A stretch of 34,389 nt of DNA, taken from positions 1 to 34,389 of IMG/VR virus record IMGVR_UViG_3300017653_000213; one strand, given 5' to 3'. Under the pieces are notes generated by a model that worked only from the letters and a program-made list of their open reading frames with translations, had not been told where the DNA came from and ran no database searches. Each line of letters starts with the position of its first letter. Position 1 is the first letter of the stretch. Positions 1 to 34,389 of this stretch are shown in pieces. Source of the stretch: a virus. Taxonomy: Duplodnaviria; Caudoviricetes. The translations under genes and the position numbers were made by a program.

Positions 1-2469
1 TTAAATAATCTTTTGAAGCTCGCTCCATGACCTTCCATACATTCTCGCATGACGTAAGGTTAAAAATGAATTATCATGCCTTTCTTCCTTATTAATAGGT
101 GGCAACATATGAACCATAAACGCATGTAAAGGCTCTTTTGTGTTTAATATTGCAATAGCATAATGTTTTGGTGTCATTAATGCTTCTTCTATTGTAAACG
201 TTGGTTCTAGTCTTTCCTTAGCCATTTCAAATGTCTTCTTGTGATCATTTGCAAATAAGAATTGATTCACACCACCAGCAATTAAATTATCCTGTAAATG
301 TTGTGGGAGTTTACCCCAATGATGGAATGCAAAGATACTTCCTAAACGTTCTTTTCTACCTTCAGTAGCTATTCTACCTATTAATTTAGATAAACCTTCA
401 CTTTGTACCTGTTCAGGTTCATTGAATATCATAAAGCATCCATGACGCTCTTTATCCTCATTACTCATTAACATTCTTGTCATAATTACTTTTAATGTTA
501 TCCAATGTGCTAAAACGTTTGCTGAATTTCCTAATACTCGTTTTGGAATACGTATTATTATTGTCTTTCCTTCTTTCATCCACTGTTCAAAATCAACTTG
601 TGGAAGTGGAGGTTGTGCGAATATGTCAAATAACGTATCATCACCAAAGAATGTATTTAAACGGTCTAGTATTGGATCACATTTGTTTCCAACATCATCA
701 TTAGTACCCCAATTCAATAAATCTTTTGATAGACGATAATTACCTTCATTCATTAGCTCTCTTGCTCTCTGTTCCCTATACTTTTCATCTTCAATTATCC
801 TTTTAATATCAAACAATGAACCTTTAGCTGCCTTACTTGCTTCAGTTAAATATTTCTTTGAACGTGCTAATCCTTCTATTTGCATAAAGTCAATCATTTC
901 TAATGCAAATCGTGAACCGCCTTTACGACCTAATTTTTTGATAACTTCAGACAAGTCTAATGGAACAATCCACTCTTCATTAGTGAAATCTAAATCAATA
1001 ATCTTCTCAGCTGGAAGTAAATCACGAATACCATCAGCCATGCCCCTATGACCTTGTTCGCCTATCCAGTCTGGAATAATGAATGAAATACCTTTTTTAT
1101 TACCTTCATATACAAAGTTTTGAATTGCAGTATCTTTCCCTGAACCTTGCTTACCTACGAACGTATAACCACTATAGAAATCGTCCTTATTCTTATATTG
1201 TAAAGCAACAGGTATTTCCCTATCTTTGATTTCAGCATGACCTATCATCAAGTTATTAGGATTTTGTAACTCTTCTGGAATAGCAACTTCAACACGTTTC
1301 TTTACATTTAGTTCATCTGAGTAATTTAATTGTAATTCTCGGTTAGGCATCATTAATGCAAGTTTACTCATTTCATCCGTACTAACTAAATTAACATTTG
1401 GATCATGTTTTGTACTATAATCCAGTTTTAATGAATTCAATTCATCTATGATTTTCTTTTTCTTCTTTTTACTATTTATTTTTACACCAGTTAATTCATT
1501 AGTTTCAGTTAAATCTTGCATTGATAATGCTAATGATTCTGATATCGTATCTCTAGTTAATTTGTCTTCTGAATGTGCTACAACTCGAATATGTGAACGG
1601 AATACAGGCAAGTTACCTTTTTCTTTACTTATTTTTGATGTACCAATTTCATCTTCAAGTGAATAAGCTTTTTCTATAATTTTGTTATTTTCAAATTTTT
1701 CTTTACTTTTGAAGAAAGCATTCTGAAATGCATTAAAGACATCCGTTACAAAACTAAATAATTCATTGATAATAGCTGTGATTATTACTTTAATTGATGT
1801 AACTATTCGTTTACCGCTAATTGTTGCCCTTTGTGGTACTTTACCTTTATGAGCCTTTTCGTATGTCCACTGTGCATTTCTAACCCACTTATTACGATTT
1901 TCTACCTCATTACAAATTGAAAATCTTGCAATATCACCGTCATATTGTAATTCATCAACAGCGTTTAGAAGTCCTGAAATTGGTATCTTTGTATCTTGTG
2001 TACTTGAATTAAGCGAAAATATGTCATGTCTTAAATAACGTAACTCTTGAACAATAGTGTTTTCAATTGGTATCTGTAATTCTTCAATACTCGCTTCTTT
2101 GAAAGTTACATCCATTTTGTTCTCAATTTTTCTTTTCAACTTTTCAGCTTGATATTCACTAGTTGCAACATAAAACTCTATTGATTTTTTACCGTCATCT
2201 TGCTTAAAAATAATATCAAACCAGAATTGATCCTTTTCACGAAATGTAAATTTAAATCCCTTTCTATCTATACGTGTACTTGGCTTTTCGTACATTTCGT
2301 ACATTTTGTAAATCATTTTCCATAAACGTTTATTATTTTGAGTTACATTCGCATGAGGAATGATTCTATACACTTTCATTTCGTTTGGTACATATTCGAA
2401 AACTTTATTTACTACCTTCTTAACATTTAACTTAGTGAATCCTTCTTTTAATGTATCAACGTTTAACAT
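1..2469 (-). CDS. VirD4/TraG/HerA-like P-loop ATPase (822 aa)
   Basis: Walker A FVGKQGSGKD, degenerate Walker B FMIFNEPEQ, and EGRKERLGSIFAFH resembling the coupling-protein EGRK motif. Confidence 0.75.
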   Translation of the reverse strand: MLNVDTLKEGFTKLNVKKVVNKVFEYVPNEMKVYRIIPHANVTQNNKRLWKMIYKMYEMYEKPSTRIDRKGFKFTFREKDQFWFDIIFKQDDGKKSIEFYVATSEYQAEKLKRKIENKMDVTFKEASIEELQIPIENTIVQELRYLRHDIFSLNSSTQDTKIPISGLLNAVDELQYDGDIARFSICNEVENRNKWVRNAQWTYEKAHKGKVPQRATISGKRIVTSIKVIITAIINELFSFVTDVFNAFQNAFFKSKEKFENNKIIEKAYSLEDEIGTSKISKEKGNLPVFRSHIRVVAHSEDKLTRDTISESLALSMQDLTETNELTGVKINSKKKKKKIIDELNSLKLDYSTKHDPNVNLVSTDEMSKLALMMPNRELQLNYSDELNVKKRVEVAIPEELQNPNNLMIGHAEIKDREIPVALQYKNKDDFYSGYTFVGKQGSGKDTAIQNFVYEGNKKGISFIIPDWIGEQGHRGMADGIRDLLPAEKIIDLDFTNEEWIVPLDLSEVIKKLGRKGGSRFALEMIDFMQIEGLARSKKYLTEASKAAKGSLFDIKRIIEDEKYREQRARELMNEGNYRLSKDLLNWGTNDDVGNKCDPILDRLNTFFGDDTLFDIFAQPPLPQVDFEQWMKEGKTIIIRIPKRVLGNSANVLAHWITLKVIMTRMLMSNEDKERHGCFMIFNEPEQVQSEGLSKLIGRIATEGRKERLGSIFAFHHWGKLPQHLQDNLIAGGVNQFLFANDHKKTFEMAKERLEPTFTIEEALMTPKHYAIAILNTKEPLHAFMVHMLPPINKEERHDNSFLTLRHARMYGRSWSELQKII

Positions 2470-12796: not shown

Positions 12797-14908
12797 CCCA
12801 AACTCACTCCCTTCATAATTGCATCAATACTCATGTTTTCATATTGTTTTCCACTAATGATATCGACAATAGATTCACCTATCATTTTTCCGTCCATTAC
12901 ATTTTGAATGACCACAAATTGTGGTTGATTATTTAGTATTTGTTTTGTTTTATCATGAGGATGTACTTTTGCACCTCTAGGAAGTTCTACTAATTCAGCA
13001 CCTTGTTCACCAACAATAGCAAGTCCACCTTTAAAGTAATCAGTACCTTTTGCTAACATTGGAATTTTAGGGATATTAATACCCCACTGCTGACCTCCAA
13101 AACCTGGTCAATTTTGTTATCGTAAAGGCTCTTTATCCTTTACTTCTGCATGTTTCCATACAGTTCAGACTATATCTTCACTCATTTATAGAGTGGTTGG
13201 CGCTCGTGGATATTTCACCATATAATAAAACCGCTTTTATAAGCGATTAATACTTAGGTTACTTTATCTAGTCGTTACACCTTCCTAGCGTTTCCGTCTA
13301 GGCTTGGCTCGGAATTGCCCTCGTCTTTACGTTAGGGCTTCCCCCGAATTCACCAACTTTATACTGAGCTACCTTTTATTTAACCCAGTCTGGAATACTA
13401 ATGGATAATGAATTCAATCCGCTTATTACTGAGTTGATCATAGAAATAACTGCATTTAACGGGGTCTTAACTGCTGTACTCACACCGTTAAAAATTCCTG
13501 TGAACGTTGATACAACACCACTCCAAGCTTTAGACCAATTCCCTGAGAATACACCAGAAATAAAGTCTGTAATTCCATTAAGTACAGGTTTAAGTGTATT
13601 GTTCCAAAATCCACTAATAGCACTAAATGACGTAGATACAGCTTTACCAATTGCAGAAAATACAGTTTGGAATGTTGGTAATAATACAGTTTTTATAACC
13701 GTCATAACTGTATTGAAGATAGGTTGTAAAATATTAATCCATACAGTTTTTATTAAATTAAAAGCAGTTTGAACAACATCTTGTATTGTTTTGAACCCTG
13801 ATTGAAATGCAGGTAATAAATCATTCATAATTACTTGAATAATAGTCATTAACGCTGGTTGTAATATTGTATTCCAAACATCAACAATCCAATTAAATGT
13901 GTCTTCAACTATTTTTGCAAATGCCTTAAATGTTGCTTCATTATCCGTATACCATTGTTGAATTGCTGTAATGAAAGTTTGGATTCCAAGAATAATTGCA
14001 TTAAAAATTGCTGATATTGTTGCTTCGTTCTCTGTGTACCATTGTTTAATAGCGCCAATGAAGTTATTAATCCATTGAATACCTATTTGAATTCCAGTTG
14101 ATAATACTGTAAATACGGTATCTATAACGAGTTGGATCGTTGGCATATTTGCAGTTACCCAATCTAGTAATCCTTGAAACATAGGCATTAATCGAACACC
14201 GACTTCAGTTAGAACTCCACTAAATGTATTTTTGACTTTTTCCCAACCTAGTCTAAAATCTTCAGCTTTTTTTAATTGTGCATCATCAATTACATTTGCA
14301 CTATTCTTCATGTTTTCAAGTTCTTCAGCAGTCATATTTAAAACAGGTGCAAGTTCTTCACCAGTTGTTGAAAGAAACATTGTAGCAATAGCGTTACGTC
14401 TTGTAACATCTTCCATACCTTGTAATCCTGTAATTACTTCATTAAATAATTGCTCTTGAGATTTTAGTTTTCCACTTGCATCTTCAACATTTACACCTAA
14501 CTCTTTAAATATTTCGGCATTCTCACCTACTCCACTTTGAGCATCCATTGCTTTTTCCGCCAGAGCGGCAAGGTCACCAGATGCAGCTTCAACTGAATAT
14601 CCAAATGATTTCATTACATAATCCCACTGTTGGAATCCTTTATTTGACATACCAGCAACTTGAGCAAATTTACTAATTTCAGCAGTAGTTTCTAACGTTT
14701 TACCAAGAAGTGCAACCATTCCACCAACTGCTACTCCAGCACCTGCCGCAATTCCAGCACCCCACTTGGCAGCAGTTTTTATACCTGCACCAAGTTTACT
14801 GGCTAGTCCCTCGGCTTTTTCTTCGGTTTTAGCAATTGATTTATCAGCTTCTTCACTATCAACAAATATCGATCCGAATAGCTTAAATATTTCCATATCG
14901 ACAATCAC
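12793..14908 (-). CDS. Tail tape measure protein, two exons (14908/14896..13383 and 13108..12793)
   Basis: MEIFKLFGSIFVD start, amphipathic W/F repeats; removing 13109-13382 restores IPDWVPGFGGQQWGINIPKIPMLAKG...IVGEQGAELV. Confidence 0.93.
13109..13382 (-). ncRNA. Group I self-splicing intron (274 nt, no ORF)
   Basis: P1 ACUGGGU/GCUCAGU with U.G at the 5' splice site, P3 GUUGGUG/CGCCAAC, P7 GACUA/UAGUC (AAGAUAUAGUC S element), P8 CACUC/GAGUG, P9 with GAAA loop, terminal omega-G, in-frame exon junction. Confidence 0.95.
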
Positions 14909-25639: not shown

Positions 25640-28567
25640 TTAAACAGCAATTCGGTTTCTACTTTTCGCTTTAACTTCAGCATTAATACGTTTTTTATTC
25701 TCTTCTGCACAACAAGTACATCTAACTCGATTGTTATTTTCTCCTCGATTAATGACATTTCCACAATCAAGACAATTAGTAGCTTTCTCTCGTTCAATTA
25801 GATTAATTTCAAGGTTATGTAATAACACTTCCCCAAATTTCGATTCCCATAACATAAATAAGTTTTTAGTTTTACTAGGGTATTTGACATTTCCTTCAAC
25901 ATCAATCACCTTAGTTGTCTCATACAGGTATTTAATTAGTACGTCTACTACATATGAAGGTTCATAAGTATCACCATTTTCATTTTTGATCATTTCATTG
26001 TAGAAATCATCAATTTTAGATACCTTAGCATAATTCTTCTTTCCTTTATTACCTTGCATAATTTGAGCCTGAACTTGCTTAGAATATTTATTTATCAACT
26101 CTTCATACTGGGTAATGATTTCTTCATTAATCTCAACTGCTTTGTCACTCATTAATAACGTGTAATCAAATTTATTTCGCCCACTAAAACGTAGTGTTTC
26201 AAAATTACTTTTATCAAATTGTTTGAAAATGCGATTTACTGTACTATTGTTAATTGGTTCAACCTCATCGACTTTCTTATTTTTCACAGCAATAAAGAAA
26301 TGAGGAAGTTTGATTTTCACTTGATTCTTATTCCCCTTATCGTCAACAACAATATATCCATCAATTTCTGATAATCGCTTCTTGATATCAGCATTTTCAA
26401 TCGGGATTCTAAATCCTGTTTTTGCAAAGTCTATTTCCTGATTGTTTTTGTATTTCAACAACTTCACATTCTCGATATCTTTTTCTGTTATATCATCTTT
26501 ACCTTTATTAAACACTTTTGATATTTGATTACTAATTACACCAATGTTCGCACTGAATGAATCGCATAACGTCTTATAAATTGAATCTTCATTGATTATC
26601 TGTGGTTTACCCTTTTCCATTTCATAAGCTAACGGTTTTACTTTATTCTCATCCATATGTCTCTTAGCAACCTCTATAAACGTTTCAGAAGGCACACACA
26701 CAGCAATATCTCCATCTACATCAAAGGCTAACTCAAAGGATGCAGTAGAATAAATACTCGTATAAATACCCATTGTTTTATAATACTTATATTTTCTCTT
26801 ATCCACCTTATTAGTATTAATAGAATGCTCTATGTACAAATGAGGGCTACGAAGCATGTCGATACTAATACCATTCTCGAATAACTGACATGATACCTCA
26901 TCAGCTTTTAATTGCCCCTTAATCTCTAATCCATATAACCATTCTCCGAATGCTACAACATCTGGTAAAATGTACATTGTTCTTGATCCTTCCATAATCA
27001 ACGAACCAGATTGAGCATCTTCAATTAGAGAGTCACGCACATCTCTAATTTTACTTTGTATGTACTTATCTTTTAATAATTCATCTGTTAATGATAGAGC
27101 CTTATGTATTGGACGTTTAAATTTAACATTTGCACCAGCTAAATTTAAAAGGAAATTATTATCCTCTTTCAATTCTTTTGAAGATTTTTTAACTTTCTTA
27201 TCTTTCACAATCTTGTCTGTACTTGCAGCTTCAATAATTCGATTTATGCGATTACGTGTATAAGATGTAAATTCATCTAATTCATCATCAGTTGTATTAT
27301 AAAGTGTTTGCAACATTTGATATGAGATTGTTGAGTCTGCAAAATCTTTCTTTTTTATAGATTCAATGTTACATACTGCAAACTCTGAACCATTCTCTTC
27401 AAATTTCTTCTTAAAGTCCTCAAATGAATCATAATATTTCCACATCTTCACCTGACTAGCTGTCAATATTATCTTTTTACCTTTTAATGATTGAGGATTT
27501 CCCCACACATCATTCACAGTAAATGTGTTTAAATCAATTTCGTATCCTTGTCCTTTTTGTTCTTTTGCGAATGCGATCCAGTCAAAAGGTGTAAGAAGAC
27601 CTTTTATCCAGCTAGAACGTATTTGCACGTTTCTATTGAAGTAAGAAGGTAAAATATAGCCACAACCATCTGATACAGGATTTACTAATGGTTGTTTATC
27701 TGTCATATCATCACTGTGGATAATGTCATATTTACTGTTAATATACTCATATTCAGTATCTTCAATTTTAAATTCAAAATCAGGTAGAATAAGAACATCA
27801 TTCATGTTGAAGTCTTTTCCAGTAACATCTTTCCATTCAACTGATGCTGAAGTACATAAAGCCTTATATGCAAGAAGTTTACCAATTGCAATTCCTTTTT
27901 CAATTACTTCATTACCATCTTTATCTATTTTAATGAATTCCTTATTATTAATTATGTCATCAGTTAACCCTGCAAAGAGTTTCTTTTCTATACTTTTATA
28001 AGATTCTTCCTCAACACATACAATTCGCTTTTCTCTAATTTGACCAGCAGAAGCAAAAGTAAATTTGTATAATTTATCATTGTATTTATAGCCATTGTCA
28101 ATGATTTGTTTCATCATGTCATAATGAATAACTTCAACTACCATAAATTTATCTGTAGTTTCATTTGTCTTAATACCTAACGCTCGTGTAAAGGTAGATT
28201 CAAATTGTGCTATCTTATTTTCTGTTTTTTCTAATGCTTTAGGATTTAATACCCTCACATCTGTATTCATCTTAATTTGTGCTTTTAACTCTTTTTTAAT
28301 TGCATTTAAAACTTCCTTAACTTCACCATTTCCGTACTCTTTAACGATTTTAGTGTATGTATTAGCTAACTCTTCCTTTTTGTTAAGGTATTTATTATGT
28401 AATTCTTGATTATCTTTATGACGGTCTAATTGTCCTTCAATAATGCTTAGATTATCCTTATAGTATTTAACCGTATTGTACTTTTCACGAATCTCAAGTT
28501 CTTTCTCGTTAAATAAATCATTAGTTGTAATTGAATATAAAAATACTTGTTTAGTTTGCATTGTCAT
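25640..28567 (-). CDS. yonO: YonO-like single-subunit two-barrel RNA polymerase (RdRP-related)
   Basis: Catalytic FDVDGD (DxDGD), SAGQIR, SDGCG, QIRSSWIKG, SQVKMWKYY, YQMLQTL, LRSPHL, IDFAKT, C-terminal Zn ribbon CLDC...CTCC. Confidence 0.88.
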   Translation of the reverse strand: MTMQTKQVFLYSITTNDLFNEKELEIREKYNTVKYYKDNLSIIEGQLDRHKDNQELHNKYLNKKEELANTYTKIVKEYGNGEVKEVLNAIKKELKAQIKMNTDVRVLNPKALEKTENKIAQFESTFTRALGIKTNETTDKFMVVEVIHYDMMKQIIDNGYKYNDKLYKFTFASAGQIREKRIVCVEEESYKSIEKKLFAGLTDDIINNKEFIKIDKDGNEVIEKGIAIGKLLAYKALCTSASVEWKDVTGKDFNMNDVLILPDFEFKIEDTEYEYINSKYDIIHSDDMTDKQPLVNPVSDGCGYILPSYFNRNVQIRSSWIKGLLTPFDWIAFAKEQKGQGYEIDLNTFTVNDVWGNPQSLKGKKIILTASQVKMWKYYDSFEDFKKKFEENGSEFAVCNIESIKKKDFADSTISYQMLQTLYNTTDDELDEFTSYTRNRINRIIEAASTDKIVKDKKVKKSSKELKEDNNFLLNLAGANVKFKRPIHKALSLTDELLKDKYIQSKIRDVRDSLIEDAQSGSLIMEGSRTMYILPDVVAFGEWLYGLEIKGQLKADEVSCQLFENGISIDMLRSPHLYIEHSINTNKVDKRKYKYYKTMGIYTSIYSTASFELAFDVDGDIAVCVPSETFIEVAKRHMDENKVKPLAYEMEKGKPQIINEDSIYKTLCDSFSANIGVISNQISKVFNKGKDDITEKDIENVKLLKYKNNQEIDFAKTGFRIPIENADIKKRLSEIDGYIVVDDKGNKNQVKIKLPHFFIAVKNKKVDEVEPINNSTVNRIFKQFDKSNFETLRFSGRNKFDYTLLMSDKAVEINEEIITQYEELINKYSKQVQAQIMQGNKGKKNYAKVSKIDDFYNEMIKNENGDTYEPSYVVDVLIKYLYETTKVIDVEGNVKYPSKTKNLFMLWESKFGEVLLHNLEINLIEREKATNCLDCGNVINRGENNNRVRCTCCAEENKKRINAEVKAKSRNRIAV

Positions 28568-28631: not shown

Positions 28632-29579
28632 TTAAAGTAACTCGTATAACTCATCACAAAGGCTGTCAATTTCTTCAGGTGTTATTTCATCGACATTATC
28701 CTTAAACTTGCCCCAATTTTCTTTAGATTCACCGAATGAAGATTTAATGTTATTTGAAGGGAGCACTAAATTTCGTGCACCTTCTAAACTTTCAACTTCC
28801 TCTTCAATATTTATAGATTTCTTTTTATCTTTCCTCTTCTTGTCTACACGTTTAATTAATGGTTCGATGATGTGACCATAACCTTCTACAAATTTTTTAA
28901 CATCTTCCTCTTTAGCACTATTTAAGATATAGTGTTCGAATTTATATCCACCTTTACCATTCGGTCTACTATGAGAAGCTAAAAAGTAATGACGATTCAA
29001 TTCATAAATCATCTGATTCAGATAATCCTTATCAAATCCTAGAATTTTACTCATTCTCACAATACTCATAAATGCTTTTTCTTCCATGTTGTGTGTCCAT
29101 TTTTCAATAAGACAATACAAAGCGTAGTATTTCTCATTCAAACCTACATCCTCATACTTCTGGAACAAATCAAGTGGTACATAGATATAAAATCGGTCTT
29201 CCCCTTTTTCTCTTTCAAACTTACCAATCGGAAAAGGATTAACTGCTGTGATATGTAAGATATCCTTATCTTTCAATTCCCCTTTATCATCTAAAAGGTA
29301 TTCCCAACGTGATACATTTTCTACTTTAATAACCTTTGCAGCTTTCAATTTCTTCAACAAATCAAATATTTCAGTAGATGTATATTTTGTTTCCTTTCGT
29401 AACATTGAGATGGAAGTCATAAACGTATGTTCATTTTCCTGACCATGTAATCTAAACTTGTACAATTGAAAATATAGATTTAAACCCTTATACGTTATCT
29501 TCTGATAAACATTTTGCTTTCTATCCAATTCATCAAACCACTTACTATTAATTTTTATCGAGTCTAATGTGTAATTCAA
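28632..29579 (-). CDS. Putative replication initiator (tandem winged-helix-like)
   Basis: Two repeats of an LYxxL...TSISML / YYALY...MSIVRMSKILG wHTH pattern; adjacent to iterons; TTG start with GGAGGT RBS. Confidence 0.55.
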   Translation of the reverse strand: MNYTLDSIKINSKWFDELDRKQNVYQKITYKGLNLYFQLYKFRLHGQENEHTFMTSISMLRKETKYTSTEIFDLLKKLKAAKVIKVENVSRWEYLLDDKGELKDKDILHITAVNPFPIGKFEREKGEDRFYIYVPLDLFQKYEDVGLNEKYYALYCLIEKWTHNMEEKAFMSIVRMSKILGFDKDYLNQMIYELNRHYFLASHSRPNGKGGYKFEHYILNSAKEEDVKKFVEGYGHIIEPLIKRVDKKRKDKKKSINIEEEVESLEGARNLVLPSNNIKSSFGESKENWGKFKDNVDEITPEEIDSLCDELYELL

Positions 29580-31887: not shown

Positions 31888-32271
31888 CTACCAATTTGGT
31901 GTAATTTTTAATTCTAATTGGTGAGAAAGAATAAACGCTGGTACAAAATTAAACTGAAAAGAATTGTAATGACTATCAAACAAAATATAAATAACATCGA
32001 ACATTGTTGAACAAATTCCAATGTGCACCATTTTTAATTGACTCTCTTCAACACTAATTTTTGTCACTGGTGAAATTAATAGTTCTTTTACCTTTTCTGT
32101 TACTTCAGAATTTGTGATTTGCTCAAGTGCATCATAGTTGAATTGATCATTTTCGAAAAATTCATTATTTTCAAATTTAGTATAAATCATATGGAAACCC
32201 CCAACATTGTAATTAGTAAAATAAAGCTTATTGTTAAATAAAAACCGTATAACAATGACATATCTGTCCAA
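31888..32271 (-). CDS. Hypothetical early protein (probable start ATG 32190)
   Basis: RBS GGGGGT; ATGA overlap with the upstream 45-aa ORF. Confidence 0.65.
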   Translation of the reverse strand: MDRYVIVIRFLFNNKLYFTNYNVGGFHMIYTKFENNEFFENDQFNYDALEQITNSEVTEKVKELLISPVTKISVEESQLKMVHIGICSTMFDVIYILFDSHYNSFQFNFVPAFILSHQLELKITPNW

Positions 32272-32324
32272 TGTGAATCTTCACCTAAAAAGTAATTATT
32301 AATTATTTTAAATATCACCTTCAT
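32187..32324 (-). CDS. 45-aa membrane peptide, first gene of the early operon (not in ORF track)
   Basis: RBS AGGAGGT; MKVIFKIINNYFLGEDSHWTDMSLLYGFYLTISFILLITMLGVSI. Confidence 0.65.
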   Translation of the reverse strand: MKVIFKIINNYFLGEDSHWTDMSLLYGFYLTISFILLITMLGVSI

Positions 32325-32344
32325 TCTTTTACCTCCTCTTGCTT

Positions 32345-32452
32345 AACTATTTACATTGTACACTTTAAAATTTACTCTGTAAACACTTTTTGTAAACTTT
32401 TTAATTTACTTTTTCAAATTGTTGTTTACATGTACACTTTTGCATATAATAT
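32345..32452. promoter_or_regulatory. Divergent switch region with operator-like repeats
   Basis: TTTAC-n2/3-GTA(A/C)A palindromes and repeated TGTA(C/A)ACTTT; plus-strand TTGTTT-17-TATAAT before the HTH gene. Confidence 0.55.
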
Positions 32453-32467
32453 TAGTGAGGTGATAAA

Positions 32468-32683
32468 ATGCAATTAACTACTGCTGAGAAGATTAAATTA
32501 ATACTTGGACGTAAGAATATGACATTATCCGATTTAGCTAAAAAGATGAATTCAACTAGACAAAATTTACATAATAAGATGACTAGAAATAACTTTAGTG
32601 AAAATGAATTAAGATTAATTTCTGAAATATTGGAAGTTGAACTTAAAATAGAGTTTGTATTATCAGATGGTGATCGTATTTAG
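32468..32683 (+). CDS. XRE/Cro-CI family HTH regulator, probable repressor
   Basis: EKIKLILGRKNMTLSDLAKKMNSTRQNLHNKMTRNNFSENEL; the only sizeable plus-strand gene, divergent from the early operon. Confidence 0.88.
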   Translation: MQLTTAEKIKLILGRKNMTLSDLAKKMNSTRQNLHNKMTRNNFSENELRLISEILEVELKIEFVLSDGDRI

Positions 32684-32691
32684 GCAATATT

Positions 32692-32726
32692 AAAAGCGTA
32701 ACCTAATATGGCTACGCTTCTTTTTA
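32692..32726. terminator. Bidirectional terminator
   Basis: AAGCGTAACC/GGCTACGCTT stem with T-runs on both strands. Confidence 0.75.
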
Positions 32727-32829
32727 TGTTTAAAATTATTTTGAATTATTTAAAACTCTTTTGTATTATTATGTATCCAGTTTAAAATTTTTAAAAATAA
32801 TTCAAAACTGTTCAAATAAGTCTTGACAT

Positions 32830-33396
32830 ATACAACCTCTTACACCAGAATGAACGCTGCTCTATGAAATAGGCGCAAAGTAGTTACCTACTATCTAAAA
32901 CTCAAAAAAGAGTAATAGACAATAAGTAACTACCCGAACTATACACCGTCATGTCGTGTCTGATGTTTCTAGTCGTCTTGTTTAGTAGGGAATTTTCATT
33001 CCACATACTCTCACGTAATTACTGTCCTACGTGTGCGATAGTCATTTAATCGCATGAGTATGTTTACCAGTGCCTTGACACTCCAGTAAACCTCCTAGCC
33101 TTTAATGGTAGCTCTCACCATTTCATCCCACTCTAAACAAGCAAAGAGTTTGACAGGGATATATTCCGTAGTTTGCGTTGTGACGGACTGCACTGACCAG
33201 TTTTGATTAACGTCCAGTTAGTGGGCAACCTAGACGGACAAACACTAAATTTAAGCGTACTTAAATAAGCCTTCTACTTGCTATTTTTTGAAAAAGGCTT
33301 TAAAATAGATTTAAATACACTTATGCTGGCAGGCATTTTTAGTGTAGTCATATTTAATTGTGGATCACTGTTGGTAGCAGTGATTCTTTTTTGTTT
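32830..33396 (-). ncRNA. Candidate large structured non-coding RNA downstream of the integrase
   Basis: Many nested helices whose G.U pairs and GAAA tetraloop work on the minus strand; no substantial ORF; boundaries approximate. Confidence 0.7.
33313..33392 (+). ncRNA. Candidate ~80-nt antisense counter-transcript
   Basis: TTGCTA-17-TAAAAT promoter (33278-33306), hairpin with UGGCAG loop, terminator with UUGGUAG loop and U-run. Confidence 0.65.
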
Positions 33397-34389
33397 TTAA
33401 ATGTCTAAATTGTTTAGTGGTGAGTGTTTCTGATACTTTCTTCCAATTTCTCTATCCGAAAAGTCTAGATAAGCCTTCATAGTTGTATTAATGTCTGAAT
33501 GACCTAAAATTCTTGATAATGTAGCAAAATCGCCAAAATTCAATAGATAATACTTCGCAAAGTTATTTCTAAGTAAATGAGGATGAACCTCTAAATCAAC
33601 ACTTCTTCCTTTTCTTCTAACAGTTGCTTCAAAGTTTGTTACATCTAGTCTTGTCCCTCGTGTAGTTGGAAAAAGATAAGGACTATCAGAAAACCTGTCT
33701 CTATATTGCATCCAACGTTTCAATTCAATTGACATTTTGTGACCGAAATAAACATATCGCTCATGACCATTTTTAGTGTTCTTAACAAGGATACTTTTAG
33801 TTTTGAAATCAATATCCTCTGGCATAAGAGAACAACATTCAGATGCCCGACAACCAGTTTCTAGGATCAATCTGAGTTGGAGCCATGTTCTATATTCATG
33901 AAAAATTGTTAAATTGAACGAGTTGAAGAAAAGTTTCAATTCTGATTCAGTTAACAGCTTTTTCTTCTTACGCTTCGGTTTAATACGCTCAATATTTTCC
34001 ATTGGATTATCCTTAATTTCACGTTCTTTTAGTAAGAAATTGAAGAATACCTTAATATTTCGTGTGTAATTAGCTATTGTAGTGTCGCTAATTGGCTTTT
34101 TATAATCTTCTCTACGTTCTGGGTAGTTAATGTTTAAAGCCTTGTCCGAAGCTGTAACAGTGTATTTCCCTCTATCTCTCAAATACTTGATATATTGACG
34201 AATATGAGAAGGTTTAACATTTGCAGCATCATCAATATTTAATTCTTGTACTAAAAAATTTCTGAAAAGTTTTAATGTTTGATCATATGATTTCATAGTT
34301 TTTAATGACAGATGTTTCGCATCACAATACAACATAAATGAGTCAATTTGTAAATCCAGTTCTGTAATTTTAGATTCAATTGAACGCAA
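33397..34389 (-). CDS. int: Tyrosine recombinase/integrase (start at window edge, possibly 5'-partial)
   Basis: SAM-like N-domain; catalytic TGCRASE, KNG, HPHLLR, LGHS, AYL. Confidence 0.95.
   Translation of the reverse strand: MRSIESKITELDLQIDSFMLYCDAKHLSLKTMKSYDQTLKLFRNFLVQELNIDDAANVKPSHIRQYIKYLRDRGKYTVTASDKALNINYPERREDYKKPISDTTIANYTRNIKVFFNFLLKEREIKDNPMENIERIKPKRKKKKLLTESELKLFFNSFNLTIFHEYRTWLQLRLILETGCRASECCSLMPEDIDFKTKSILVKNTKNGHERYVYFGHKMSIELKRWMQYRDRFSDSPYLFPTTRGTRLDVTNFEATVRRKGRSVDLEVHPHLLRNNFAKYYLLNFGDFATLSRILGHSDINTTMKAYLDFSDREIGRKYQKHSPLNNLDI

What the first reader, a model, noticed from the sequence alone, without database searches (positions are those of the whole stretch)
32830..33300. 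Large, highly structured ORF-less RNA directly downstream of the integrase
Seen: about 500 nt, more GC-rich than the flanking intergenic DNA, folding into many helices. These include an 18-bp helix 32880-32897/32916-32933 that is perfect only on the minus strand (3 G.U pairs) and a long-range helix CUUGUUUAG/CUAAACAAG (33133-33141/32977-32985) closing a multibranch domain. That domain holds a three-way junction (ACAUACUC/GAGUAUGU around CACGUA/UACGUG and UGCGAU/AUCGCA), GUUUACU/GGUAAAC, AAUGGU/ACCAUU and GGAAU-GAAA-AUUCC. Further 5' hairpins are CGUCUAG/CUGGACG and AUUUAAG-UACG-CUUAAAU. I do not recognise it as tRNA, tmRNA, an intron or a riboswitch. Inference: an unnamed phage RNA, co-oriented with the integrase. 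It could be a replication primer RNA, an integrase-associated RNA, or a partner of the YonO-like polymerase.
Basis: partly seen in the sequence, partly recalled or inferred. Interest (0 to 1): 0.88.

Follow-up and report, generated by a model that had tools for sequence, protein, structure and literature searches.

The report
Rep-replacing pseudoknotted RNA of Bacillus elements
This stretch is one member of a family of large, knotted, likely RNA structures, matching no catalogued family, that sit right behind the integration gene of bacterial phages and islands or on small plasmids with no recognisable replication gene, and it likely starts the copying of the element's DNA in place of a replication protein.

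Summary
The minus strand folds better than shuffles (z -4.4; plus strand -1.1). In 29 aligned homologs, 81 of 90 pairs show double changes, including four pseudoknots, with RNA-type UNCG and GNRA loops. No Rfam family matches; ARRPOF scores 20.5 bits (cut-off 127) and misses most homologs, so it is a look-alike, not the family. In chromosomes the RNA lies directly behind a tyrosine integrase gene (30 of 31; 26 of 29), after a leader with a predicted antisense RNA. Sister proviruses put an HTH Rep-like gene in the same slot, three behind the same leader, and one genome shows the RNA joined to a rep remnant. Homologs also occur on 7-16 kb Bacillus plasmids, most with no integrase and no recognisable Rep. 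Best reading: a ColE1-RNA-II-like replication initiator under antisense control (about 55%). Nothing shows expression or function, and many carriers encode other replication proteins. A tie to the large polymerase-like gene is not supported.

The parts
33397..34389 (-). Tyrosine integrase gene (330 aa in the window); likely source of the read-through transcript
   Evidence: PF00589 E 1.7e-29, phrog_1; closest named relatives in Lysinibacillus, Metasolibacillus, Viridibacillus, 73-79%
33255..33396 (-). Conserved leader between integrase stop and RNA core; the same leader precedes Rep-like genes elsewhere
   Evidence: Aligned in 30 homologs; leader profile hits 13 of 41 integrase loci, among them L004, L005, L009 before an HTH Rep-like gene, and a P. 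larvae plasmid before a PriCT-1 protein, E 8e-5
33278..33306 (+). Predicted antisense sigma-A promoter in the leader
   Evidence: 9 of 12 consensus matches; 9 or more of 12 in 17 of 30 homologs with a fixed search window; about 13% of random 80-nt windows score so
33312..33392 (+). Predicted 80-nt antisense (countertranscript-like) RNA, two hairpins, ending in an intrinsic terminator at 33362-33392
   Evidence: Only terminator found in 32200-34389; fold -22.2 kcal/mol; hairpin plus A-run kept by eye in the homologs; not shown to be expressed
32855..33240 (-). Core structured RNA, about 390 nt (380-473 in homologs), four pseudoknots among 16 helices
33211..33236 (-). Hairpin P1
   Evidence: 7 of 7 pairs with double changes, 91% paired
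33165..33193 (-). H-type pseudoknot 1 (33193-33191 with 33182-33180) over helix P2 (33187-33183 with 33169-33165)
   Evidence: Pseudoknot 95% paired, 2 of 3 pairs with double changes; P2 only 69% paired, alignment register poor
33125..33160 (-). Helix P3 whose loop (33141-33136) pairs long-range with 32982-32977
   Evidence: Long-range pseudoknot 91% paired, 5 of 6 pairs with double changes; inner P3 89%, outer P3 60%
33097..33120 (-). H-type pseudoknot 2 (33120-33117 with 33109-33106; 33113-33111 with 33099-33097); the stretch most like the ARRPOF consensus
   Evidence: 82% and 92% paired; ARRPOF alignment
33019..33089 (-). Pseudoknot 3 (33089-33084 with loop 33024-33019) and hairpin P5 (33082-33069), UNCG loop in most homologs
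   Evidence: 95% and 100% paired; UNCG in 24 of 29, not in the window's own copy
32989..33063 (-). Three-way junction P6-P7-P8 (P7 takes insertions of up to about 75 nt) and GNRA hairpin P9
   Evidence: 82-90% paired; GNRA at fixed columns in 24 of 29
32880..32933 (-).
   Evidence: 16 of 18 pairs with double changes, 89% paired
32823..32851 (+). Conserved convergent sigma-A-type promoter at the 3' end of the element
   Evidence: Best promoter match of the region, 10 of 12; kept in 24 of 29 homologs, spacer 16-19 nt, 19 in nine; 9 or more of 12 in 6 of 9 plasmid-type and 8 of 9 clostridial-type copies, null 13%
32468..32683 (+). XRE/Cro-type HTH repressor gene facing the RNA; common but not constant neighbour
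   Evidence: PF13443, phrog_3; similar opposite-strand HTH ORFs downstream in many homolog loci (by eye)
28632..29579 (-). DnaD_N-like protein, a probable second (lytic) replication initiator of this prophage; context, not part of the module
   Evidence: PF21984 E 2.3e-6, score 28.2 over cut-off 27; 35% identical homolog in the Rep-slot sister provirus G371

Best explanation
The element is a conserved, multi-pseudoknot structure that fills the same slot behind the integrase as a Rep-like gene does in sister elements, and it likely acts as an RNA replication initiator, a primer precursor of the ColE1 RNA II kind, for the element's free circular form. Shown: the fold by covariation, the strand, the position, the exchange with Rep-like genes, and the presence on plasmids without recognisable Rep. 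Inferred steps: (1) in prophages and islands it is made by read-through from the integrase promoter, on plasmids from its own upstream promoter; (2) an 80-nt antisense RNA from the leader limits how often the full RNA is made or folds, as RNAIII does for repR of pIP501 and RNA I for ColE1 RNA II; (3) the folded RNA would hold its 3' end on the template as an R-loop near 32855-32880, to be cut (RNase H or another host enzyme) and extended by a host polymerase; (4) the convergent promoter at the 3' end would help open the DNA, prime the other strand or make a second antisense RNA. The likely gain is that integrase induction and replication of the excised circle are tied to one transcript.
For: Structure: 86.9% of cells paired against 66.3% shuffled and 35-45% for slid partners; 81 of 90 pairs with double changes, 0 of 500 shuffles. 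Strand and RNA character: sense z lower in 28 of 30 homologs; G-T 189 against A-C 45 in helix cells; UNCG 24 of 29, GNRA 24 of 29. Slot: 7 of 7 tested ORFs that follow related integrases match phrog_1835, and five of them also match replication-initiation families; relatives of two of them lie on 20 and 44 plasmid records; three follow the same leader. Exclusion: six Rep queries hit none of 20 RNA-bearing regions nor the window, except a 32-codon remnant in G060, where the RNA's 3' end joins DNA 94% identical over 378 nt to the rep end of G372; the broadest profile finds no RNA in the fetched parts of the four Rep-slot proviruses G371-G374. Plasmids: full-length homolog on pBGN_3 (7243 bp) and B. 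cereus p4 (7375 bp), E 3e-19 with a profile built without them; 11 of 13 whole plasmids fetched carry it after iteration; the 7-8.5 kb ones have no ORF over 234 aa, no replicon type listed and no Pfam Rep family apart from one HTH_36 protein. The same leader precedes a PriCT-1 protein on a P. larvae plasmid. Precedent: ARRPOF lies in a gene-free region sufficient for Rep-independent replication of pKH9 (PMC5737381) and is the best-E family in 2 of 3 short-stretch scans.
Against: No expression, no ends and no replication assay. Many carriers encode other replication proteins: the window's DnaD_N-like gene, an AEP-TOTE primase, a ResIII-like protein and an HTH_36 protein in other elements, an HTH_36 protein on plasmid L199, a rolling-circle Rep and a DnaC-like ATPase on the C. 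perfringens plasmid. Rep-slot proviruses also hold a second initiator, so this does not separate the cases, but it removes any need for the RNA. The small plasmids share uncharacterised 167-223 aa proteins (clusters in 7-10 of 13 plasmids), one of which could be an unknown Rep. The plasmid set was found with the RNA region as query, so 11 of 13 is not an unbiased rate. The Rep role of phrog_1835 is itself inferred. The G060 junction may be a plain module swap, and its integrase frame is split. Carrier regions were 12-20 kb slices and the proviruses are 61-100% complete. No conserved sense promoter was seen in the leader.
Confidence: 0.55

Rival explanations
1. Integrase-linked RNA: a structured 3' extension of the integrase message that sets its stability (in the manner of lambda sib, recalled), or an RNA that binds the integrase and steers excision in place of a directionality protein.
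For: 30 of 31 upstream ORFs tested are PF00589 integrases; 26 of 29 copies found by the RNA model have one upstream on the same strand; no own sense promoter seen.
Against: Full-length copies on plasmids with no integrase; partner integrases are only 22-51% identical to the window's; two loci whose integrases begin with the same 50 residues and score alike carry different RNA subtypes (L055, L075); the 78% and 69% relatives L004 and L005 have a Rep-like gene instead.
Confidence: 0.15
2. Single-strand DNA origin or conversion signal: the minus strand folds as DNA during rolling-circle replication or transfer, and RNA polymerase primes the second strand from the convergent promoter.
For: Conserved 3' promoter uses the structured strand as template; some carriers have FtsK with a replication-relaxation protein or a rolling-circle Rep; the ARRPOF paper notes such plasmid motifs could act as ssDNA.
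Against: UNCG and GNRA loops and four covarying pseudoknots are RNA features (established knowledge); an antisense-type leader is not needed for a DNA signal; most carriers show no rolling-circle Rep.
Confidence: 0.13
3. A stand-alone large RNA with another role, such as a cage or scaffold like ROOL or GOLLD, an anti-defence decoy or an addiction antitoxin, merely carried in this cassette.
For: Large ornate RNAs are common in prophages (PMC5737381); ARRPOF forms dimers and has been suggested to affect host transcription (PMC12990946).
Against: Does not explain the exchange with Rep-like genes or the leader shared with a PriCT-1 gene; no conserved partner gene or small toxin ORF was seen.
Confidence: 0.14
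4. Cofactor or template of the phage's large polymerase-like protein (25640-28567).
For: The window and two other carriers (L135, L144) have the gene.
Against: 18 of 20 carrier regions lack it; G374 and G373 have that protein family but a Rep-like gene and no RNA; plasmids lack it.
Confidence: 0.03

Closest known systems
ARRPOF RNA (Rfam RF02933; Fusobacterium plasmid pKH9)
   Same: Multi-pseudoknot RNA of similar order of size on mobile DNA; a short consensus stretch around pseudoknot 2 and the loop partner of pseudoknot 3 align by eye; a junction-to-loop pseudoknot is described for ARRPOF (PMC12990946); lies in a region sufficient for Rep-independent replication (PMC5737381).
   Different: Scores 20.5 bits against a cut-off of 127.2; misses the homologs in 4 of 4 other genomes and in 20 loci; about 390-470 nt against 256; other junction topology; found in Bacillota and behind integrases.
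ColE1 RNA II / RNA I and ColE1-like Vibrionaceae replicons
   Same: A large structured RNA (about 550 nt) as the only element-encoded initiator, controlled by a short antisense RNA (PMC5703827, PMC12361487; passages). This is what the element is predicted to work like.
   Different: No sequence or Rfam match; Gram-positive hosts; four pseudoknots; second, convergent promoter at the 3' end; coupled to an integrase; R-loop and priming not shown.
pIP501/Inc18 replicon (RNAIII attenuation of repR; abstract of PMC4981023)
   Same: Antisense RNA acting in a leader ahead of the replication initiator; the leader here also precedes a PriCT-1 protein on one plasmid.
   Different: There the controlled product is a protein; here the slot holds a non-coding structure. 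No terminator-antiterminator switch could be shown by consensus folding of the leader.
ROOL and GOLLD large RNAs
   Same: Large, ornate, in prophages of Bacillota (PMC5737381).
   Different: No Rfam match at any score tried; no tRNA-array context; fixed place behind integrases.

Membership tests
ARRPOF (RF02933) | Score at or above the Rfam gathering cut-off (127.2 bits) | tested here: not met
   20.5 bits for the window; 16.9 and 13.9 for L020; none for L076 or 20 loci
ARRPOF (RF02933) | Model finds the homologs above background | tested here: not met
   In G038, G060, G336, G269 the matches (10-17 bits) lie elsewhere; the model rings weakly in 7 of 14 control genomes
ARRPOF (RF02933) | Shared pseudoknot core (H-type knot and junction-to-loop pairing) | tested here: inconclusive
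   Similar by eye to the printed consensus; no real ARRPOF sequence could be fetched
ARRPOF (RF02933) | Domain-swapped homodimer | not testable with these tools
   Known from cryo-EM only (review passage)
ColE1-type RNA-primed replicon | Large structured non-coding RNA of several hundred nt | tested here: met
   (structure; transcription not shown)
ColE1-type RNA-primed replicon | No element-encoded Rep needed | tested here: inconclusive
   Small plasmids without recognisable Rep, but uncharacterised shared ORFs remain and many carriers have other initiators
ColE1-type RNA-primed replicon | Short antisense RNA against the 5' part of the primer precursor | tested here: inconclusive
   Promoter-like site and terminator on the opposite strand of the leader; expression not shown
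ColE1-type RNA-primed replicon | R-loop, RNase H cut and DNA polymerase I extension at the origin | not testable with these tools
   Needs experiment
ColE1-type RNA-primed replicon | Sequence homology to ColE1 RNA I/II | tested here: not met
   No match among 72,556 plasmid records with the window's copy; no Rfam match
ROOL / GOLLD / OLE | Rfam model match | tested here: not met
tRNA, tmRNA, group I intron, riboswitch | ARAGORN or Rfam match | tested here: not met

The most novel reading that the evidence does not exclude
A protein-free, antisense-controlled replicon of Gram-positive mobile DNA, built on a four-pseudoknot RNA that swaps freely with Rep genes behind integrases and alone runs a family of 7-kb Bacillus plasmids; it would be the widespread, testable relative of ARRPOF and would tie excision and replication of prophages and satellites to one transcript.
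Probability: 0.4. Interest if true: 0.92.

Novelty: new variant of a known kind. Interest (0 to 1): 0.8.

Why it matters
RNA-primed, Rep-free replication is textbook for ColE1 in enterobacteria, but I found no such replicon described for Bacillota in the searches run. This family gives a candidate with natural controls: sister elements with a Rep-like gene in the same slot, and small plasmids without recognisable Rep. It would explain how untyped 7-kb B. cereus-group plasmids replicate, give the open question of ARRPOF's function a tractable B. subtilis model, add a new large RNA fold for structure work, and could yield compact vectors. It is common where it occurs: 24 of 151 sampled genomes of the host's order match the core model at E below 1e-5.

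Tried and rejected
Window RNA against phage and plasmid collections: no match; L073 copy gave only 34-nt Acinetobacter hits, taken as chance; L020 copy none; L028 copy none in phages. Pattern from the ARRPOF-like core in viral contigs: 0. Second pattern: the 1 viral hit and 8 of 9 genome hits and 42 of 45 metagenome hits were chance. The large polymerase-like protein found no relatives in viral contigs. A first single-sequence search suggested that integrase relatives lack the RNA; profiles later found L013, so that was a sensitivity limit. Model R1 also missed L013's record, so its blanks are weak. Phylum-wide R1 search gave 5 weak hits without profile support or integrase, counted as false. 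Clostridial-type copies are not found by any of the three core profiles. No RNA holder listed among public runs. No real ARRPOF member could be fetched. Consensus folding of the leader gave no structure, so an attenuator is not shown. Pairing of the 3' promoter's -35 box with the RNA's 5' part was considered and dropped: it fits only some homologs (by eye). An att or dif-like site in the leader was considered; the same leader precedes plasmid genes and the elements' ends lie upstream of the integrase, so it was dropped. Earlier scan notes: nothing relevant.

Full report
Setting. The integrase's closest named relatives are from Lysinibacillus, Metasolibacillus and Viridibacillus.

Observation. 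The minus strand of 32830-33310 folds at z -4.42 (0 of 100 shuffles), the plus strand at z -1.10. GC is 39.7% against 21-24% in neighbouring intergenic DNA. No Rfam family reaches its cut-off here; in E-value mode the best family is ARRPOF, 20.5 bits, E 0.019, cut-off 127.2.

Homologs. A pattern scan gave one true genome hit of 9, a truncated copy in Viridibacillus arenosi beside what I read as a tmRNA 3' scar (label recalled). Searching that genome's family with 32800-33340, which holds no integrase sequence, matched 43 of 370 genomes, many only over the leader; 30 loci were returned. A profile search kept 28 of the 29 new ones and 3 of 45 metagenome pattern hits, one being the window's own locus. 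Alignment A2 has 29 rows: I left out L056 (near copy of L055), L071 (partial) and L044 (truncated). Mean identity is 57%.

Structure. RNAalifold predicts 51 pairs, 46 with double changes. A 90-pair model taken from the window's sequence, with four pseudoknots, has 86.9% of cells paired (shuffled 66.3%, slid partners 35-45%) and 81 pairs with double changes, 0 of 500 shuffles. The tool warns that related sequences can beat the shuffle, and helices 3 and 4 are weak (69%, 60%), probably from alignment register. The strand is the integrase strand: lower z in 28 of 30 copies (12 shuffles each), and G-T cells outnumber A-C cells 189 to 45 in the helices counted. UNCG and GNRA tetraloops, each in 24 of 29, favour RNA over single-stranded DNA (established knowledge).

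Context. The ORF just upstream is a PF00589 integrase in 30 of 31 loci tested; the exception is the truncated copy. L062 was not sent: its integrase-like ORF ends 648 nt upstream. These integrases are 22-51% identical to the window's. A 71-position covariance model matched 27 of 151 genomes of the order, 4 of 151 of the class and 5 of 151 of the phylum at E 0.01. Of 38 loci examined, 29 were confirmed by the full-length profile and 26 of these have an integrase upstream on the same strand; 7 of the 29 were already in the training set, and the 9 unconfirmed ones have no integrase. The carriers are varied 12-35 kb prophages and satellite-like islands, with no constant partner except the integrase and often a facing HTH gene.

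Leader and promoters. Between integrase stop and core lies a conserved 140-nt leader with an opposite-strand promoter-like site (9 or more of 12 in 17 of 30; null about 13%) and an opposite-strand terminator, which predicts an 80-nt antisense RNA. A second opposite-strand promoter closes the 3' end in 24 of 29 copies and, with other -10 letters, in 6 of 9 plasmid-type and 8 of 9 clostridial-type copies. Nine copies have a 19-nt spacer, which is long for a promoter.

The slot. Among 41 viral loci with related integrases, the leader profile hits 13. In three (L004, L005, L009) it precedes a 250-275 aa HTH gene; L002 has such a gene there without a leader hit. These match phrog_1835, and five of seven tested also match replication-initiation families; relatives sit on small Bacillus plasmids. 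L013 has a divergent RNA (E 1.5e-18). About ten clostridial-type loci have a non-coding stretch that shares the leader, the first knot and a loop-to-3' pairing by eye, with covarying helices in an 11-row scan; the core profiles do not find them, so I call them a probable distant subtype. The other loci have unrelated genes or none. RNA and slot-Rep were not found together: no Rep hit in 20 carrier regions or the window except a 32-codon remnant in G060, where the RNA's end joins DNA 94% identical over 378 nt to the rep end and flank of G372; no RNA in the fetched parts of G371-G374.

Plasmids. A divergent copy led to B. cereus-group plasmids. pBGN_3 (7243 bp), p4 (7375 bp) and a 1629-bp record carry a homolog at E 3e-19 with the original profile. 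Their region matched 23 plasmid records; I fetched 11 more. Of 13 whole plasmids, 11 carry the RNA after two profile rounds (E 6e-35 to 0.004), L205 shows only a 5' piece by eye and L206 none. Printed copies keep the knots with compensatory changes by eye. The 7-8.5 kb plasmids have no ORF over 234 aa, only 'non-mobilizable' as typing, and no Pfam Rep family except an HTH_36 protein on L199 (37 of 47 cluster representatives sent, the rest scanned or named in the records). One RNA-bearing plasmid, L203, has a short tyrosine recombinase gene away from the RNA. A clostridial-type copy lies on a 13.5-kb C. perfringens plasmid that has its own rolling-circle Rep, which counts against a strict need. 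On a P. larvae plasmid the leader precedes a PriCT-1 protein.

Mechanism. A leader that elsewhere stands before replication initiators, a slot shared with Rep-like genes, and plasmids without recognisable Rep point to an RNA initiator like ColE1 RNA II under antisense control (55%). Read-through transcription, antisense control, R-loop and priming are all inferred. Rivals are an integrase-linked RNA (15%), another role for a large RNA (14%), a single-strand DNA origin (13%) and a polymerase partner (3%).

Known families. ARRPOF is the nearest look-alike: best-E family in 2 of 3 short scans, but far below cut-off, absent from other scans and weakly ringing in 7 of 14 control genomes. Membership fails; resemblance in one knot and in predicted role stands.

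Literature seen. PMC5737381: passages and section 24; its supplement could not be read and may bear on ARRPOF's neighbours. PMC12990946: passages and section 5. PMC5703827, PMC12361487, PMC2864571, PMC11109978, PMC8040213 and bioRxiv 10.1101/2024.07.17.603877: passages. PMC4981023: abstract. PMC8632094: listing only. The primary pKH9 and ARRPOF cryo-EM papers were not seen. Searches turned up no description of this family. PMC8040213 mentions 28 short candidates near integrase, sortase or phage domains in supplements that I did not open; pieces of the clostridial subtype could be among them.

Verdict. Real, conserved and uncatalogued as far as tested; best read as a new variant of RNA-primed replicon. 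Interest 0.8.

Noticed in passing
window 13146-13417 (-): Group I intron (Rfam RF00028, 86 bits) splitting the tape-measure gene into 510-aa and 88-aa frames. A weaker group I match with an HNH gene also lies between two ORF pieces, the first annotated as tape measure, on the C. perfringens plasmid L195.
   Followed up: no
L033 1749-2235: Eight CRISPR-DR3 repeats about 700 nt behind the integrase of a clostridial-type provirus, just after the putative RNA: a mini-array without visible cas genes in the stretch fetched.
   Followed up: no
L128 12262-12630 (G060) and L004 1878-2245: RNA 3' end fused to the last 32 codons of a rep-like gene, 94% identical between two elements; the G060 integrase frame is split in two.
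   Followed up: yes
L129-L134, L146, L147: 12-15 kb integrated elements with a tape-measure-like gene (label by eye), sometimes an SU10-type capsid gene, an AEP-TOTE primase or ResIII-like protein and a resolvase, but no evident tail or terminase set: possibly an undescribed satellite family of Planococcaceae.
   Followed up: partly
L193, L194, L197-L201, L204-L207: A family of 7-8.5 kb B. cereus-group plasmids with resolvase, HTH and small unknown proteins and no typed replicon.
   Followed up: partly
L110 upstream of the integrase; L056, L060, L065, L069, L072, L077, L101: Elements with this integrase subfamily sit behind the same chromosomal response-regulator gene, which I read as spo0A (label recalled); other carriers sit at tRNA genes or at what look like guaA and erpA.
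   Followed up: no
L171 (G131) and L167 (G278): Chromosomal copies without an integrase; in L171 the copy lies at a junction inside what looks like a comG pilin gene (label recalled), suggesting another recombinase or a remnant.
   Followed up: partly
window 1-2469 (-): 822-aa protein of unknown family phrog_5156, 61% identical to a gene near the RNA in L144.
   Followed up: no
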